From Escherichia coli (GTDB lineage: Bacteria; Pseudomonadota; Gammaproteobacteria; Enterobacterales; Enterobacteriaceae): a DNA stretch of 64,000 nucleotides. Position numbers and translations under genes: made by a program. Location of the stretch: NCBI RefSeq assembly GCF_044324875.1, contig NZ_CP172185.1, one strand, 5' to 3'. Positions 44,283 through 48,505 of this stretch are shown here, one piece after another. A model generated the notes under the pieces. The model searched no databases and was not told where the DNA came from. It worked only from the letters and a program-made list of their open reading frames with translations. The number at the start of each line of letters is the position of its first letter. The first letter of the stretch is position 1.

Positions 44283-45566
44283 ATGACAGAAGCGATGAAG
44301 ATTACCCTCTCTACCCAACCTGCCGACGCGCGCTGGGGAGAAAAAGCGACTTACAGCATTAATAATGATGGCATTACCCTGCATTTGAACGGGGCAGACG
44401 ATCTGGGGCTGATCCAGCGTGCGGCGCGCAAGATTGACGGTCTGGGCATCAAGCATGTTCAGTTAAGCGGTGAAGACTGGGATGCGGATCGCTGCTGGGC
44501 ATTCTGGCAAGGTTACAAAGCCCCGAAAGGCACACGTAAAGTGGAGTGGCCGGATCTGGACGATGCCCAACGGCAGGAACTGGATAACCGCCTGATGATC
44601 ATCGACTGGGTGCGTGACACCATCAACGCACCGGCAGAAGAATTGGGACCATCGCAACTGGCACAGCGTGCTGTTGATCTGATCAGCAACGTCGCGGGCG
44701 ATCGTGTGACTTATCGGATCACCAAAGGTGAAGATCTGCGTGATCAAGGTTATATGGGGCTGCACACGGTCGGACGCGGTTCAGAACGTTCTCCGGTATT
44801 GCTGGCGCTGGATTACAACCCAACTGGCGATAAAGAAGCGCCAGTGTACGCGTGCCTGGTTGGTAAAGGCATCACCTTTGATTCCGGCGGCTACAGCATC
44901 AAACAGACCGCATTTATGGACTCGATGAAGTCGGACATGGGCGGCGCGGCAACGGTTACCGGGGCGCTGGCGTTTGCCATTACGCGCGGACTGAACAAGC
45001 GCGTGAAGCTGTTCCTCTGCTGTGCGGATAACCTGATCAGCGGCAACGCGTTCAAACTGGGCGATATTATTACCTATCGCAACGGTAAAAAAGTTGAAGT
45101 GATGAACACTGATGCGGAAGGGCGTCTGGTGCTGGCCGATGGCCTGATTGATGCCAGTGCGCAGAAACCGGAACTGATCATTGATGCGGCGACCCTCACC
45201 GGGGCGGCGAAAACTGCGCTGGGTAATGATTATCACGCGCTGTTCAGTTTTGACGATGCGCTTGCCGGTCGCTTGCTGGCGAGTGCCGCGCAGGAGAATG
45301 AACCGTTCTGGCGTCTGCCGCTGGCGGAGTTCCACCGCAGCCAGCTGCCGTCTAACTTTGCCGAACTGAACAATACCGGAAGCGCGGCGTACCCGGCAGG
45401 CGCGAGCACGGCGGCGGGCTTCCTGTCGCACTTTGTTGAGAACTATCAGCAAGGCTGGCTGCATATCGACTGCTCGGCGACTTACCGTAAAGCGCCGGTT
45501 GAACAGTGGTCTGCGGGTGCTACGGGACTTGGTGTGCGCACGATTGCTAATCTGTTAACGGCGTAA
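44283..45566 (+). CDS. pepB: aminopeptidase B (M17 leucyl-aminopeptidase family)
   Basis: 427-aa ORF from [15 protein letters not shown]...; M17 motif [12 protein letters not shown]. Confidence 0.93.
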
Positions 45567-45573
45567 ACTAATA

Positions 45574-45673
45574 TGCCGGATGCGGCGTAAACGCCATATC
45601 CGGCCTACAAAGTATTGCAAATTCAACAAATTGTGAATCCCTTGTAGGCCTGATAAGTATGGCGCATCAGGCA
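45574..45673. repeat. BIME: two inverted REP palindromes
   Basis: TGCCGGATGCGGCGTAAACGCCATATCCGGCCTAC and GTAGGCCTGATAAGTATGGCGCATCAGGCAC between pepB and sseB. Confidence 0.85.
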
Positions 45674-45708: not shown

Positions 45709-46485
45709 ATGTCCGAAACAAAAAATGAACTTGAAGACCTGCTGGAAAAAGCAGCAACCGAACCGGCGCACCGCCCGGCCTTTTTCCGTACTCTACTGGA
45801 ATCCACCGTCTGGGTGCCGGGTACGGCGGCGCAGGGCGAGGCTGTGGTTGAAGATAGCGCGCTTGATTTACAGCACTGGGAAAAAGAAGACGGCACCAGC
45901 GTCATTCCTTTTTTTACCTCGTTAGAAGCACTTCAACAGGCGGTTGAAGACGAACAGGCATTTGTCGTAATGCCCGTTCGCACATTGTTTGAGATGACCC
46001 TTGGCGAAACGCTCTTCCTTAATGCCAAACTGCCAACCGGTAAAGAATTTATGCCGCGTGAAATCAGTTTGTTGATTGGTGAAGAAGGAAATCCGCTGAG
46101 CAGCCAGGAAGTACTGGAGGGCGGTGAATCGCTGATATTATCGGAAGTCGCAGAGCCACCAGCACAAATGATTGATTCTCTCACCACCTTATTTAAAACT
46201 ATTAAGCCGGTGAAGCGTGCTTTTATTTGTTCAATTAAAGAGAACGAAGAGTCACAGCCTAATTTACTTATTGGCATTGAAGCCGATGGTGATATCGAAG
46301 AAATTATTCAGGCGGCGGGAAGTGTAGCGACCGATACATTACCTGGCGATGAACCCATCGATATTTGTCAGGTGAAAAAAGGGGAAAAAGGAATTAGCCA
46401 CTTTATTACCGAACATATTGCGCCATTCTATGAACGTCGCTGGGGTGGTTTTTTGCGTGACTTTAAACAGCATCGGATAATCTAA
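45709..46485 (+). CDS. sseB: enhanced serine sensitivity protein SseB
   Basis: 258-aa ORF MSETKNELEDLLEKAATEPAHRPAFF...; synteny between pepB and sseA. Confidence 0.85.
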   Translation: MSETKNELEDLLEKAATEPAHRPAFFRTLLESTVWVPGTAAQGEAVVEDSALDLQHWEKEDGTSVIPFFTSLEALQQAVEDEQAFVVMPVRTLFEMTLGETLFLNAKLPTGKEFMPREISLLIGEEGNPLSSQEVLEGGESLILSEVAEPPAQMIDSLTTLFKTIKPVKRAFICSIKENEESQPNLLIGIEADGDIEEIIQAAGSVATDTLPGDEPIDICQVKKGEKGISHFITEHIAPFYERRWGGFLRDFKQHRII

Positions 46486-46802
46486 AATATGCCGCCCCAA
46501 AGGGCGGCATTCGGGCTTACTTGCTGCTCTGAAGTTTGTTAACCACCAGTAAATTGTTGCCGGAGAGACTCCGGTTATTATTTACCTCGGTTAACAGCGC
46601 ACCAGAAACAATAAGTACGATACAAAAGCACCGTATCTTCATTGTGCGGTCCATGCGAAGACCGCATCACGACAGCACCACTGGCGATATTGCCGCGATA
46701 GCAAGCGCTGAGACGCGCTTGCTCTAACGGTCGCGGAACATCCTTTCCTTAAGCCAGCGCCCGCTTGCGAGACGGCGGAAAGGGCCGCAGTGGATAATAC
46801 AC
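46486..46802 (-). ncRNA. ryfA: RyfA-like RNA copy 1 (putative small-protein toxin mRNA, TimP/RyfA type); 5' end approximate
   Basis: Minus-strand unit between a promoter-like TTGTCA-16-TATTGT (about 46837-46810) and terminator hairpin ATGCCGCCCTTTGGGGCGGCAT plus U-tract (46510-46486); about 310 nt; leader has SD-sequestering CCTTTCC/GGAAAGG stem. Confidence 0.6.
46517..46654 (-). CDS. hypothetical 45-aa small protein with hydrophobic N-terminal segment (candidate type I toxin)
   Basis: ORF MDRTMKIRCFCIVLIVSGALLTEVNNNRSLSGNNLLVVNKLQSSK verified codon by codon; identical in copy 2 except the last residues; no strong Shine-Dalgarno, so start codon uncertain. Confidence 0.35.
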   Translation of the reverse strand: MDRTMKIRCFCIVLIVSGALLTEVNNNRSLSGNNLLVVNKLQSSK

Positions 46803-46865
46803 TAACAGAACAATAATAACTCTCTTTTGCTTGACAAAAAGAGGGTTACTGGCGAGTATTGTCTC

Positions 46866-46962
46866 CGCTGAGACGCGCTTGCATTACTACGGTAATACAA
46901 CCTGCTGGAAAGGCCGCGAACCGGACCAGCAACAAAAAACCGCCTGATTTTGGCGGTTTTTT
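46866..46962 (+). ncRNA. putative sRNA 1, divergent from RyfA-like copy 1 (candidate antitoxin RNA, TimR-like)
   Basis: TTGACA (46831-46836) -17 bp- GAGTAT promoter; about 97 nt to intrinsic terminator AAAAAACCGCC-tgatttt-GGCGGTTTTTT (46935-46962); 5' 17 nt identical to the plus strand at 46706-46722. Confidence 0.5.
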
Positions 46963-47079
46963 GTTGTTTAAAGAAAGTGAATTTACATGTTCAAGTAATA
47001 TCTTTTATTGGTTAGTATTTTTAATATTAAGCGAAAATTGTTTATATTTGTCTGAATTCGGACTAATAAGCTAGGTTAT

Positions 47080-47163
47080 TTTATTACCGAACATATTGCG
47101 CCATTCTATGAACGTCGCTGGGGTGGTTTTTTGCGTGACTTTAAACAGAATGGGATAATTTAA
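47080..47163 (+). pseudogene. duplicated 3' fragment of sseB (about 27 C-terminal codons plus stop), non-functional remnant at the repeat junction
   Basis: TTTATTACCGAACATATTGCGCCATTCTATGAACGTCGCTGGGGTGGTTTTTTGCGTGACTTTAAACAG repeated from 46402-46470, followed by a diverged tail and TAA at 47161-47163. Confidence 0.8.
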
Positions 47164-47480
47164 AACATGCCGCCCCAAAGGGCGGCATTCGGGCTTACCT
47201 GCTGTTCTGAAGGTTGTTAACCACCAGTAAATTGTTGCCGGAGAGACTCCGGTTATTATTTACCTCGGTTAACAGCGCACCAGAAACAATAAGTACGATA
47301 CAAAAGCACCGTATCTTCATTGTGCGGTCCATGCGAAGACCGCATCACGACAGCACCACTGGCGATATTGCCGCGATAGCAAGCGCTGTGAAACACCTGC
47401 ATTTACGGCCATGGAACATCCTTTCCTTAAGCCAGCGCCCGTTTGCGAGACGGCGGAAAGGGCCGGTGTCGATAATACGC
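47164..47480 (-). ncRNA. ryfA: RyfA-like RNA copy 2; 5' end approximate
   Basis: Same architecture as copy 1, shifted by 678 bp; terminator hairpin at 47167-47188; leader diverged from copy 1. Confidence 0.6.
47195..47332 (-). CDS. hypothetical 45-aa small protein, paralogue of the 46517-46654 ORF
   Basis: Same ORF as copy 1 with three C-terminal substitutions (K to N, S to N, K to R); frame and length preserved. Confidence 0.35.
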   Translation of the reverse strand: MDRTMKIRCFCIVLIVSGALLTEVNNNRSLSGNNLLVVNNLQNSR

Positions 47481-47543
47481 TAAATAAACAATGATTACTG
47501 TCTTTCGCTTGACAAAAAGAGAGTTACTGGCGAGTATTGCTTT

Positions 47544-47644
47544 GCTGTGAAGCACCTGCGTTGCTCATGCAACACAAGCCAACCTGCTGGAAAGGCCGCG
47601 AACCAGACCAGCAATAAAAAACCGCCAAATTCGGCGGTTTTTTA
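47544..47644 (+). ncRNA. putative sRNA 2, divergent from RyfA-like copy 2 (candidate cognate antitoxin RNA)
   Basis: TTGACA (47509-47514) -17 bp- GAGTAT promoter; terminator AAAAAACCGCC-aaattc-GGCGGTTTTTT (47616-47645) also serves convergent sseA; 5' region matches the plus strand at 47384-47403 with G-U wobbles. Confidence 0.5.
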
Positions 47645-47659
47645 TTGCCTGTAAAAAGC

Positions 47660-48505
47660 TTATTTCAATGGCTCAACCGGTAAATCTGCCCGTGCGCCCC
47701 ATTCACTCCATGCGCCGTCGTACAGTTTCACGTTTGGCACATCAAGTGTCGCGAGTGCTAACAAAACCACGGCTGCCGTTACACCAGAGCCGCAGCTGAC
47801 GATAATCGGTTTGTCATAGCTGACGCCGCGACCAAAAAATATCGCATCCAGTTCATCGGTCGTTTTTAGTTCGCCTTCGCGCACCAGTTCCGTCCACGGA
47901 ACGTTCAATGCACCGGGAATATGTCCGCGACGTAAACCTGGGCGAGGTTCATCAACTTCTGCGTTAAAACGTGCAGCCGGGCGGGCATCAATAATTTGCG
48001 CCGTATTTTCATGGCTTGCCAATAACACATCGGTGACTTTCACCACGGCTTCAGGATTAAACGTGGCGTTAAACTCTCCTTCCGGCAGCTCTACTGCACC
48101 TTCTTCTAACAGCAGATCATCGCGCTGCCAGCCTGCAAGTCCACCCCCCAGAATCGACACTTTCTCTACACCAAAGGTGCGCAGCATCCACCATGCTCGT
48201 GGGGCTGAGAAAAGATTACCTTCGTCATAGACAATCAGGTGCTTATCCTGGTTAACGCCTAACTCACGCATCGCCACGGCGAACGTTTTCGGGCGCGGCA
48301 GCATGTGCGGAAGCGGGGAAGTGTGATCAGAAAGCGCTTCGATATCAAAAAACACTGCGCCGGGAATATGTCCATTCAGATACTCCTGAGCAACGTTACG
48401 ATCTTCCTGTCCAGGCGACGCCATGCGGGCATCGATAATCTGAATTTCCGGGTCATCAATATGTTCGGCGAGCCAGTCGGCTCCTACAAACCATGTCGTG
48501 GACAT
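47660..48505 (-). CDS. sseA: 3-mercaptopyruvate sulfurtransferase (tandem rhodanese)
   Basis: 281-aa ORF from MSTTWFVGADWLAEHIDDPEIQIIDARM; catalytic Cys motif SCGSGVTA; the six-frame ORF extends upstream to 48664. Confidence 0.9.
   Translation of the reverse strand: MSTTWFVGADWLAEHIDDPEIQIIDARMASPGQEDRNVAQEYLNGHIPGAVFFDIEALSDHTSPLPHMLPRPKTFAVAMRELGVNQDKHLIVYDEGNLFSAPRAWWMLRTFGVEKVSILGGGLAGWQRDDLLLEEGAVELPEGEFNATFNPEAVVKVTDVLLASHENTAQIIDARPAARFNAEVDEPRPGLRRGHIPGALNVPWTELVREGELKTTDELDAIFFGRGVSYDKPIIVSCGSGVTAAVVLLALATLDVPNVKLYDGAWSEWGARADLPVEPLK

What the first reader, a model, noticed from the sequence alone, without database searches (positions are those of the whole stretch)
46963..47079. 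AT-rich 117-bp spacer present only between the two modules
The segment after the sRNA 1 terminator is about 80% A+T and has no counterpart after copy 2, which abuts sseA directly. It may be a remnant of the original sseB-sseA spacer or an inserted fragment, and it could carry a curved-DNA or nucleoid-protein binding element separating the modules.
Basis: seen in the sequence. Interest (0 to 1): 0.3.

Follow-up and report, generated by a model that had tools for sequence, protein, structure and literature searches.

The report
AT-rich linker between tandem toxin-antitoxin modules
The 117-bp AT-rich stretch is the non-coding joint left between tandem copies of a small toxin-antitoxin module (timP/ryfA plus its sRNA) in E. 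coli; it is already catalogued as part of the doubtful "IS128" RNA and shows no sign of a function of its own.

Summary
Window 46963-47079 is 76% A+T (not 80%), the most AT-rich 117 bp of the window, and lies between two copies of the timP(ryfA)/sRNA type I toxin-antitoxin module. Copy 2 ends 11 nt before the sseA stop codon.

The segment is the inter-unit linker of a tandem array. It occurs in 2241 of 5426 complete E. coli genomes, always at this locus, and never in single-module genomes, outgroups, plasmids or phages. It appears twice in three-module arrays.

Its first ~28 nt are a decayed continuation of the repeat (p≈0.01). The remaining 89 nt match nothing.

It sits between two convergent terminators and has no promoter above chance. 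It diverges faster than synonymous sites, with AT-biased changes.

Its minus strand matches Rfam IS128 (210 bits). In K-12 that model corresponds to a deletion-scar transcript, strand-specific Northerns did not detect IS128, and its helices show no covariation.

Curvature and H-NS, IHF or Fis motifs are not enriched. An in vitro SELEX study does flag the K-12 sseA-ryfA region as H-NS-bound.

Verdict: a known, ordinary, probably functionless junction of low interest. The surrounding polymorphic array is more interesting than the spacer.

The parts
46402..46485 (+). 3' end of sseB (last 84 bp); start of repeat copy 1
   Evidence: sseB ORF ends 46485; D1
46484..46788 (-). ryfA-1 / timP-1 mRNA (toxin transcript of module 1); timP ORF 46517-46642
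   Evidence: Rfam RF00126, 313.6 bits; ORF; timP annotated in the near-identical ETEC1738 locus
46866..46962 (+). sRNA 1 (RyfB1/TimR-type antitoxin sRNA, type-1 box 46866-46882 identical on the same DNA strand to the box at 46706-46722 inside ryfA-1; because the two RNAs are read from opposite strands they are complementary there)
   Evidence: D3 (17-nt repeat); 100% identical to K-12; corresponds to IS129/ECS011 detected by Northern (PMC3175480); the 5' end is inferred by homology to K-12 timR
46930..46966 (.). Bidirectional intrinsic terminator of sRNA 1 (A6-stem-loop-stem-T6); left boundary of the spacer
   Evidence: I5 (15-nt arms, 100% complementary); invariant in 9 variants (helix 5)
46963..46990 (.). 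Soft left part of the 'spacer': decayed continuation of the repeat, a copy of the terminator-sseA gap plus the last sseA codons
   Evidence: 13/24 ungapped in-register identities with 47648-47671, permutation p=0.008
46991..47079 (.). Orphan AT-rich core (89 bp, 76% A+T) with no detectable homologue; contains the imperfect palindrome GTCTGAATTCGGAC (47047-47060)
   Evidence: no significant similarity to anything tested; composition; palindrome coordinates read directly from the sequence
46920..47130 (-). Match to Rfam RF00125 'IS128 RNA' (covers terminator, spacer and 51 nt antisense to the sseB remnant)
   Evidence: 210.6 bits, gathering score 80, model 1-209
47080..47163 (+). sseB' remnant (84 bp copy of the sseB 3' end); start of repeat copy 2
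   Evidence: D1; annotated as partial sseB pseudogene in ETEC1738 and others; shares strain-specific variants with the resident sseB
47162..47466 (-). ryfA-2 / timP-2 mRNA (module 2; timP ORF 47195-47320); its terminator at 47167-47188 faces the spacer
   Evidence: Rfam RF00126, 319.2 bits; terminator scan
47544..47648 (+). sRNA 2 (= K-12 timR b4811 homologue, type-2 box) with its terminator at 47611-47648; followed by 11 nt and then sseA
   Evidence: alignment to the K-12 timR annotation; I4
47660..48505 (-). sseA (3-mercaptopyruvate sulfurtransferase)
   Evidence: 846 nt, translation starts MSTTWFVG as in K-12

Best explanation
The 117 bp is the inter-unit linker, or junction scar, of a tandem array of timP(ryfA)/timR-type type I toxin-antitoxin modules. 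The array was inserted between sseB and sseA.

One ancient illegitimate joining event fused a point just inside the 3' end of sseA to a point 84 bp before the end of sseB. About 89 bp of DNA of unknown source lies at the joint. Since then, unequal homologous recombination between modules has expanded the array to three units, contracted it to one, and shuffled it. The linker is always carried between units.

The linker lies in a transcriptional dead zone between two convergent terminators, the bidirectional sRNA-1 terminator and the ryfA-2 terminator. It has no promoter, ORF or conserved RNA structure of its own. It has no homologous partner for gene conversion and evolves at or above the neutral rate under AT-biased mutation. 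That keeps it, and in this lineage makes it more, AT-rich. Any H-NS binding is most likely a passive consequence of its composition.

Shown: the anatomy, the distribution, the lack of constraint, and the lack of homologues. Inferred: the single joining event, the recombinational dynamics, and the absence of function.
For: 1. Anatomy. The segment is flanked by direct repeats of the module and bracketed by terminators on both sides.

2. Distribution. It is present in 2241 of 5426 E. coli genomes, always chromosomal and at one locus. It is absent from every genome where the locus collapses to about 820 bp; there the spacer is the only uncovered part of the query, with 92% coverage.

3. Absence elsewhere. 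It is absent from Escherichia, Salmonella and Citrobacter outgroups, from plasmids and from phages.

4. Three-module arrays. Strain MEW carries module 1 - spacer - sseB' - module 2 - spacer - sseB' - module 3 - sseA. The two spacers differ at 3 of 118 positions, and there is no spacer after the last module.

5. Recombination. Specificity cassettes are swapped between positions while the linker stays put. The sseB' remnant shares strain-specific variants with the resident sseB, which indicates gene conversion.

6. Residual homology. The first ~28 nt retain in-register similarity to what follows the last module.

7. No constraint. Window vs K-12, the spacer is 11.9% divergent, against 4.7% and 7.1% at fourfold sites of sseA and sseB. 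Six of the 8 window-specific changes are G/C to A/T. Indels break every ORF.

8. No promoter. One 9/12 promoter-like site was found, at chance level.

9. No RNA structure support. There are 0 compensatory pairs in the IS128 helices, and the changes that do occur break pairs.

10. Literature. IS128 was not detected with strand-specific probes (PMC3175480), and its overexpression gave no phenotype (PMC4606813).
Against: 1. The origin of the 89-bp core is unexplained. A plain tandem duplication predicts that the same sequence follows the last module, and it does not.

2. Two sub-blocks are nearly invariant among the 9-13 variants sampled: around 46995-47007 and around 47040-47066, which includes the palindrome GTCTGAATTCGGAC. 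With so few and such closely related sequences, this cannot be told apart from shared ancestry.

3. Two independent deletions (K-12-type and L084-type) removed toxin 2 but both spared the spacer. Their left endpoints lie within 20 bp of each other.

4. Genomic SELEX flags H-NS binding in this K-12 intergenic region.

5. Absence of function is inferred from sequence only. No expression or binding data for a two-module strain were available.
Confidence: 0.7

Rival explanations
1. The spacer is the body of a genuine small RNA, IS128, transcribed on the minus strand and ended by the bidirectional terminator at 46930-46966. Alternatively it is a functional 3' extension of ryfA-2 produced by read-through.
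For: - It gives a full-length match to Rfam RF00125 at 210.6 bits against a gathering score of 80.
- The minus strand ends in a strong hairpin followed by a U-run.
- In K-12 the ryfA-2 promoter is retained and points into the spacer across the 356-bp deletion.
- An RpoS-holoenzyme SELEX peak is reported in the sseA-ryfA spacer (PMC5493296). By my own coordinate conversion it lies near that promoter.
Against: - In the intact two-module window there is no promoter for it. The model's 5' ~50 nt align to the antisense of the sseB remnant with non-canonical pairs. ryfA-2 also has its own terminator upstream of the spacer.
- Strand-specific Northerns in K-12 detected only the opposite-strand RNA (IS129/ECS011, which is sRNA 1), and the authors call IS128 an artefact or condition-specific (PMC3175480).
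- Overexpression gave no phenotype (PMC4606813).
- The family's helices inside the spacer show no compensatory change, and several variants break them.
- The sequence evolves faster than synonymous sites.
Confidence: 0.1
2. The spacer is a nucleoid-protein (H-NS-type) binding or nucleation site. It either silences the flanking toxin or sRNA promoters or insulates the two modules from each other.
For: - At 76% A+T it is the extreme of the 64-kb window.
- The K-12 sseA-ryfA spacer region is marked as containing an H-NS site in genomic SELEX (PMC3946193 Table 3).
- Wedge-model curvature is moderately high, at the 97.5th percentile.
- The segment is retained in the two deletion derivatives.
Against: - There is no A-tract phasing (p=0.62) and no match to the H-NS high-affinity motif or the IHF consensus. 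The Fis-like pattern occurs at chance level.
- The SELEX result is in vitro and not resolved to this segment.
- Both neighbours present their 3' ends to the spacer, so no promoter lies within about 100 bp on one side and 390 bp on the other for it to silence.
- There is no sequence constraint.
- 59% of E. coli genomes, and all outgroups, run the module without it.
Confidence: 0.12
3. This rival concerns origin only. The whole 117 bp is ancestral sequence: either the original stretch between the sRNA terminator and sseA, later deleted after the last module, or a fully decayed sseA 3' fragment plus a longer sseB fragment. It would not be foreign or filler DNA.
For: - The first 24-28 nt keep in-register similarity to the terminator-sseA gap and the sseA end.
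- Salmonella and Citrobacter do have 45-100 bp between the sRNA terminator and sseA, so a longer ancestral gap is conceivable.
- Gapped alignment of the consensus spacer to the copy-2 downstream region gives z≈1.95.
Against: - Beyond position ~28 the in-register identity is 25%, equal to expectation.
- There is no significant similarity to sseB upstream of -84, to the Salmonella or Citrobacter gaps, or to module sequences.
- The right boundary is abrupt, falling from 100% identity to random at 47079/47080.
- No genome, single- or multi-module, has the sequence after its last module.
Confidence: 0.2

Closest known systems
Rfam RF00125 'IS128 RNA' (predicted sRNA between sseA and sseB; per PMC3175480 it was first reported, together with an overlapping antisense partner IS129, in that paper's reference 9, which from my own knowledge is Chen et al. 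2002)
   Same: It covers the same DNA. The window matches the whole 209-nt model on the minus strand at 210.6 bits, spanning the terminator, the spacer and the start of the sseB remnant. K-12 scores 261 bits.
   Different: In K-12 the model's 5' hairpin spans a 356-bp deletion scar and starts at the orphaned ryfA-2 promoter. The window has the undeleted arrangement, so the 5' quarter of the model aligns to non-homologous DNA. Expression of IS128 was not confirmed, and its structure has no covariation support here.
ryfA1/ryfA2 with ryfB1/ryfB2 'sibling sRNA' locus of Shigella dysenteriae (Fris et al. 2017, PMC5333039)
   Same: The architecture matches: two ryfA genes, each preceded by a divergent ~100-nt sRNA with a copy-specific complementary box (window boxes D3).
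   Different: In the passages I retrieved from that paper by term search, the DNA between the two modules is not discussed, and 'sseB' does not occur in its main text. I did not verify that the window is S. dysenteriae.
timP-timR type I toxin-antitoxin system of Salmonella (Andresen et al. 2020, PMC7667032)
   Same: The modules on both sides of the spacer are homologues: a small toxic membrane protein mRNA plus a divergent repressor sRNA.
   Different: The Salmonella loci examined here (subsp. arizonae and diarizonae) have a single module and nothing resembling the spacer. The spacer lies outside both transcription units.
Other tandemly repeated type I TA loci of E. coli (zor-orz, sib/ibs, ldr/rdl); named from my own knowledge and not examined here
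   Same: They are small toxin plus sRNA modules that occur as tandem, diverging copies separated by short non-coding linkers.
   Different: They are different, unrelated sequences. No comparison of their linkers was made.

Membership tests
Rfam RF00125 IS128 RNA | Covariance-model score at or above the curated gathering score (80 bits) | tested here: met
   210.6 bits, E=1.9e-48, model positions 1-209
Rfam RF00125 IS128 RNA | Located in the sseA-sseB intergenic region | tested here: met
Rfam RF00125 IS128 RNA | Conserved secondary structure supported by compensatory changes | tested here: inconclusive
   Across 9 distinct variants and 35 pairs there are 0 pairs with changes on both sides, and covariation equals the shuffles (254/500). 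Variable cells in the spacer helices are unpaired; only the terminator is invariant. Variation is too low for a firm rejection.
Rfam RF00125 IS128 RNA | Exists as a discrete transcript with its own promoter | not testable with these tools
   No promoter above chance lies on the minus strand upstream of the spacer in the window. Published strand-specific Northerns in K-12 were negative (PMC3175480).
Junction (novel joint) of a tandem duplication / inter-unit linker of a tandem array | Lies exactly between two direct repeats of the unit | tested here: met
   (D1, D2; spacing 678-682)
Junction (novel joint) of a tandem duplication / inter-unit linker of a tandem array | Absent from single-unit loci; present once per extra unit | tested here: met
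   There is no hit in 3185 E. coli genomes or in the outgroups. Three-module strain MEW has two copies.
Junction (novel joint) of a tandem duplication / inter-unit linker of a tandem array | Joint sequence derivable from the two ends of the duplicated segment | tested here: inconclusive
   The first ~28 nt are derivable (13/24 in register, p=0.008). The sseB' remnant is derivable (98%). The 89-bp core is not.
Intrinsically curved / H-NS-Fis-IHF binding element | Helically phased A-tracts or strong predicted curvature | tested here: not met
   AA/TT 10-11 bp periodicity gives p=0.62 and sits at the 61st percentile of the window. The wedge-model maximum is 38.7 degrees per 30 bp, the 97.5th percentile; its parameters were recalled from memory and are indicative only.
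Intrinsically curved / H-NS-Fis-IHF binding element | Consensus binding motifs above composition expectation | tested here: not met
   H-NS TCGATAAATT (up to 2 mismatches): 0 hits. IHF: 0 hits. Fis-like pattern: one palindromic site at 47073-47087 (GGTTATTTTATTACC), scored once on each strand (2 hits), against a shuffle mean of 2.4.
Intrinsically curved / H-NS-Fis-IHF binding element | Demonstrated protein occupancy | not testable with these tools
   Only an in vitro genomic-SELEX flag exists for the whole K-12 sseA-ryfA spacer (PMC3946193). No supplementary ChIP tables were available.
Mobile or dispersed repeat remnant (REP/ERIC/MITE/IS fragment) | Other copies elsewhere in the genome or on mobile DNA | tested here: not met
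   There is one locus per genome in 2241 genomes. The few genomes with two places are consistent with three-module arrays, as confirmed for strain MEW and suggested by the single-piece match of spacer-module-spacer in two further strains. There are no phage hits, and the only 'plasmid' hit is a 4.9-Mb record that I take to be a chromosome filed as a plasmid. Nothing else in the window matches.
timP/timR type I toxin-antitoxin module | Belongs to the toxin mRNA, the antitoxin sRNA or their promoters | tested here: not met
   The spacer lies beyond the terminators of both sRNA 1 (46930-46966) and ryfA-2 (47167-47188).

The most novel reading that the evidence does not exclude
The linker may not be inert. 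As a conserved H-NS-nucleating heterology that travels with every unit of the array, it could silence or insulate neighbouring orthogonal toxin-antitoxin modules. It could also set the frequency of array expansion and collapse. Alternatively, it could yield a condition-specific minus-strand RNA (IS128) with a role in module cross-talk.
Probability: 0.08. Interest if true: 0.4.

Novelty: already known. Interest (0 to 1): 0.15.

Why it matters
On its own the spacer matters little. It is junction DNA that is already catalogued under a doubtful name.

It is useful in two ways. First, it is a clean marker of array history at the sseB-sseA locus. Its presence in 41% of E. coli genomes, against about 3% with two or more intact modules, shows that most strains, K-12 included, descend from a multi-module array that later lost a toxin gene.

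Second, it explains away an Rfam family. In K-12, IS128 corresponds to the orphaned ryfA-2 promoter reading across a deletion scar into this linker. That is relevant for anyone using IS128, or the K-12 timR and ryfA annotation, as a reference.

Tried and rejected
1. Ancestral spacer. Local, glocal and anchored alignments of the window and consensus spacer to the sRNA-terminator-to-sseA regions of Salmonella arizonae and diarizonae and of four Citrobacter loci gave a best p of 0.04 uncorrected among 12 tests. This was rejected as not significant.

2. Decayed longer sseB fragment. A 9-nt match (ATATTTGTC) lies nearly in register with sseB upstream of -84. The overall scores equal the shuffles, with p of 0.3-0.56.

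3. Decayed ryfA or leader-promoter remnant. This was suggested by 'TAGCTTATTA' resembling the ryfA 5' leader and by the L084-type junction. The p-values were 0.3-0.65 against four module types.

4. Mobile or foreign fragment. No hits were found in phages or plasmids, and none elsewhere in E. coli chromosomes or in the window.

5. Metagenome scan with the 16-nt conserved palindrome pattern TTTGTCYGAATTCGGA. 

6. Small ORFs. The 71-codon plus-strand ORF at 46859-47074 and the 21-codon ORF at 46950-47015 are broken by indels in K-12 and other variants.

7. In vivo H-NS/Fis ChIP tables (PMC3064808). No supplementary files are held.

8. S. Typhimurium context (STM2534). The TimP look-up returned only arizonae-type loci, so this was not pursued.

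9. E. fergusonii, E. marmotae and E. ruysiae were not recovered by the single genome-contig scan and remain unchecked.

Full report
**What is there**

The window carries pepB, sseB (ending at 46485), two tandem copies of a small module, and then sseA on the minus strand with its stop codon at 47660-47662. Each module holds a minus-strand ryfA RNA (Rfam RF00126: 46484-46788 and 47162-47466, more than 310 bits each). That RNA encodes the 41-aa TimP toxin, which is annotated as timP in near-identical E. coli genomes.

Each module also holds a divergent plus-strand sRNA of about 100 nt. The sRNA carries a 17-nt box that is identical, on the same DNA strand, to a box inside its own ryfA. Because the two RNAs are read from opposite strands, they are complementary there (D3: 46706-46722 = 46866-46882). 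Copy 2 has a different, matching pair of boxes. This is the timP/timR type I toxin-antitoxin system of Salmonella (PMC7667032), and the ryfA1/ryfA2 with ryfB1/ryfB2 locus of Shigella dysenteriae (PMC5333039).

**Check of the observation**

The direct repeats are 46402-46701 vs 47080-47379 (98%) and 46898-46961 vs 47580-47643 (86%). Between them, after the perfect bidirectional terminator at 46930-46966, lie the 117 bp at 46963-47079.

- A+T is 76.1%, not 80%. This is still the most AT-rich 117-bp stretch of the 64-kb window, because only windows overlapping it reach this value.
- Copy 2 begins with an 84-bp copy of the sseB 3' end. Its terminator is followed by only 11 nt before the sseA stop.
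In the true register and without gaps, 46967-46990 is 13/24 identical to the 11-nt gap plus the last sseA codons. Expected identity is 0.30, the permutation p is 0.008, and 0.17% of 595 other offsets do as well. Beyond that point identity is 25%, which equals chance.
- The repeat thus runs about 28 nt into the 'spacer'. The unmatched core is 46991-47079 (89 bp, 76% A+T).

**Distribution**

- blastn finds the spacer in 2241 of 5426 complete E. coli genomes. It is always chromosomal and always at this locus, mostly at 88-92% identity.
- It is absent from phages. The only 'plasmid' hit is a 4.9-Mb record that I take to be a chromosome filed as a plasmid.
- In the remaining genomes the locus collapses to about 820 bp with one module, and the spacer is the only part of the query left uncovered.
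- Outgroups with a single module have no trace of it: E. whittamii, E. albertii, Salmonella arizonae and diarizonae, several Citrobacter, and Superficieibacter.
- Many Enterobacteriaceae, and some E. albertii, have an empty site of 46-55 bp.

**Contexts in which the spacer occurs**

1. Intact two-module arrays, as in the window. The 84-bp sseB' remnant gives 5586 places in 5425 genomes. This means only about 150-160 genomes (about 3%) have two or more full modules.

2. Three-module arrays. Strain MEW has module 1 - spacer - sseB' - module 2 - spacer - sseB' - module 3 - sseA. The three interaction boxes differ, the two spacers differ at 3 of 118 positions, and no spacer follows the last module.

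3. K-12-type loci. A 356-bp deletion (window 47093-47449) removed ryfA-2 but left the spacer, 13 nt of sseB', the ryfA-2 promoter and sRNA 2.

4. L084-type loci. The spacer runs straight into the promoter of an orphan sRNA of a fourth type.

In strain EC200461 the two specificity cassettes sit in the opposite order while the linker is unchanged. The sseB' remnant there carries the same strain-specific variant as the resident sseB. Together these facts describe one ancient joint that has since been carried along by unequal recombination and gene conversion between units.

**Function**

- The spacer lies between two convergent terminators: the sRNA-1 terminator, which is symmetrical with A- and T-runs on either side, and the ryfA-2 terminator at 47167-47188.
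- The promoter scan finds one 9/12 plus-strand site inside it, at chance frequency.
- The ORFs that cross it are broken by indels in other strains.
- Between the window and K-12 the spacer is 11.9% divergent, against 4.7% and 7.1% at fourfold-degenerate sites of sseA and sseB.
- Six of the 8 differences between the window and the consensus of 12 variants are G/C to A/T. This raises A+T from 72% in the consensus to 76% in the window.
- This is the pattern of unconstrained DNA under the usual AT-biased mutation.

**The IS128 family**

The minus strand matches Rfam RF00125 'IS128' over the whole model (210.6 bits), so the segment is already catalogued. In K-12 the model (261 bits) starts at the orphaned ryfA-2 promoter. 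Its 5' hairpin spans the 356-bp deletion scar, then it runs through the spacer to the bidirectional terminator. In the intact window that 5' part aligns to the antisense of sseB' with non-canonical pairs.

Shinhara et al. detected only the opposite-strand RNA (IS129/ECS011, which is sRNA 1) with strand-specific probes, and called IS128 an artefact or condition-specific (PMC3175480). Overexpression of IS128 gave no phenotype (PMC4606813). On 9 distinct variants the family's structure shows no compensatory change, and the changes inside the spacer helices break pairs.

**Nucleoid proteins and curvature**

- A-tracts are not helically phased (p=0.62).
- A wedge-model curvature profile peaks at the 97.5th percentile of the window. 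Its parameters were recalled from memory, so this is indicative only.
- There is no match to the H-NS high-affinity motif or the IHF consensus. The one Fis-like pattern occurs at chance level.
- Shimada et al. flag the K-12 sseA-ryfA spacer as containing an H-NS site by genomic SELEX. They identify TTGTCA-16-TATTGT as its RpoD promoter (PMC3946193), which is the ryfA-1 promoter found at 46837-46810.
- H-NS binding to this AT-rich DNA is therefore plausible. It is shown only in vitro, is not resolved to the 117 bp, and has no obvious target, because both neighbours present their 3' ends to the spacer.

**Origin of the 89-bp core**

This is unresolved. It is not significantly similar to any of the following:
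- the Salmonella or Citrobacter terminator-sseA gaps;
- sseB upstream of -84;
- any of four module types on either strand;
- the rest of the window.

A plain tandem duplication would place the same sequence after the last module, and that is never seen. The alternatives are filler DNA captured at an illegitimate joint, import of a module plus flank from an unsampled relative, or loss of the distal copy early in the array's history. The metagenome scan intended to widen the search used too short a pattern and returned only chance hits. E. fergusonii, E. marmotae and E. ruysiae were not sampled.

**Verdict**

The feature is real, correctly located and correctly described as specific to the multi-module arrangement. 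It is best explained as the functionless, freely drifting linker of a tandem toxin-antitoxin array (confidence about 0.7). It is already present in public resources as part of IS128.

The rivals are less likely: a true IS128 sRNA (0.1) and an H-NS silencer or insulator (0.12). The further reading that the whole 117 bp is ancestral sequence concerns origin only (0.2) and does not compete with the functional explanation.

The more noteworthy things are around the spacer: a polymorphic array of one to three orthogonal modules, and a K-12 locus whose annotated timR belongs to a lost second module.

Noticed in passing
window 46706-46722 / 46866-46882 (type 1) and about 47386-47402 / 47546-47562 (type 2); L004 and L086 (type 3); L084 1110-1150 (type 4): The toxin-mRNA and sRNA interaction boxes come in at least four co-varying types, while the rest of the module is 86-98% conserved. 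They behave like exchangeable specificity cassettes of orthogonal toxin-antitoxin pairs.
   Followed up: partly
L085 (E. coli EC200461) vs window 46700-46905 and 47380-47580: The two specificity cassettes occupy swapped positions (type 2 first, type 1 second). The position-specific terminators and the linker are unchanged, so recombination shuffles cassettes within the array.
   Followed up: partly
L228 (E. coli strain MEW, NZ_CM192120.1) 940-2900; also hits H120 and H122: This is a three-module array with three different boxes (types 1, 2, 3) and two linkers. About 3% of complete E. coli genomes have two or more intact modules, with a maximum of three.
   Followed up: partly
L001 (K-12 MG1655, NC_000913.3 2653340-2654160): The annotated timR (b4811, next to sseA) is the sRNA of a lost second module, 400 bp from ryfA. 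K-12 ryfA carries the matching type-2 box. The sRNA directly adjacent to ryfA (type-1 box, 100% identical to window sRNA 1, equal to IS129/ECS011) is unannotated and has no cognate toxin mRNA in K-12.
   Followed up: partly
L001 1216-1424 (Rfam IS128 in K-12) vs window 47093-47449: The Rfam IS128 model's 5' hairpin is formed by sequences brought together by the K-12-type 356-bp deletion. In K-12 the family therefore corresponds to a deletion-scar transcription unit driven by the orphaned ryfA-2 promoter.
   Followed up: yes
window 47080-47163 and L085 1085-1168: The non-functional 84-bp sseB remnant stays 98-100% identical to the resident sseB 3' end and shares its strain-specific variants. 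This is concerted evolution by gene conversion. In a few strains (L212, L218) its first 10 nt are decaying.
   Followed up: partly
L089, L091, L090, L086 (loci that encode exactly the SseB protein of the E. albertii type strain; the species of these assemblies was not shown); L005 3259-3432 (E. whittamii): These loci, which I take to be E. albertii, are polymorphic for the module. Two have an empty site of 46 bp, one has a single type-3 module, and one has an IS1 in the 3' end of sseA. E. whittamii has an ERIC-like element, recognised by eye only, inserted between the sseB stop and its terminator.
   Followed up: no
L217 (E. coli 2022CK-00450) 188-900: An IS1A element is inserted at about position 20 of the spacer. 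What happened to module 1 and sseB upstream was not examined.
   Followed up: no
L083 (E. coli P276M) 2020-2650: This is a K-12-type locus with an unusually dense cluster of substitutions over the sseB 3' end, timP, sRNA 1 and the spacer (spacer only 80% identical), and sseB is annotated as a pseudogene. It may be an import from a divergent lineage, local decay or an assembly problem.
   Followed up: no
window 45561-45605: A sub-threshold Rfam hit to naRNA4 (37.8 bits against a gathering score of 59.5) lies in the pepB-sseB intergenic region. It was not looked at further; a REP-type palindrome is only my guess.
   Followed up: no
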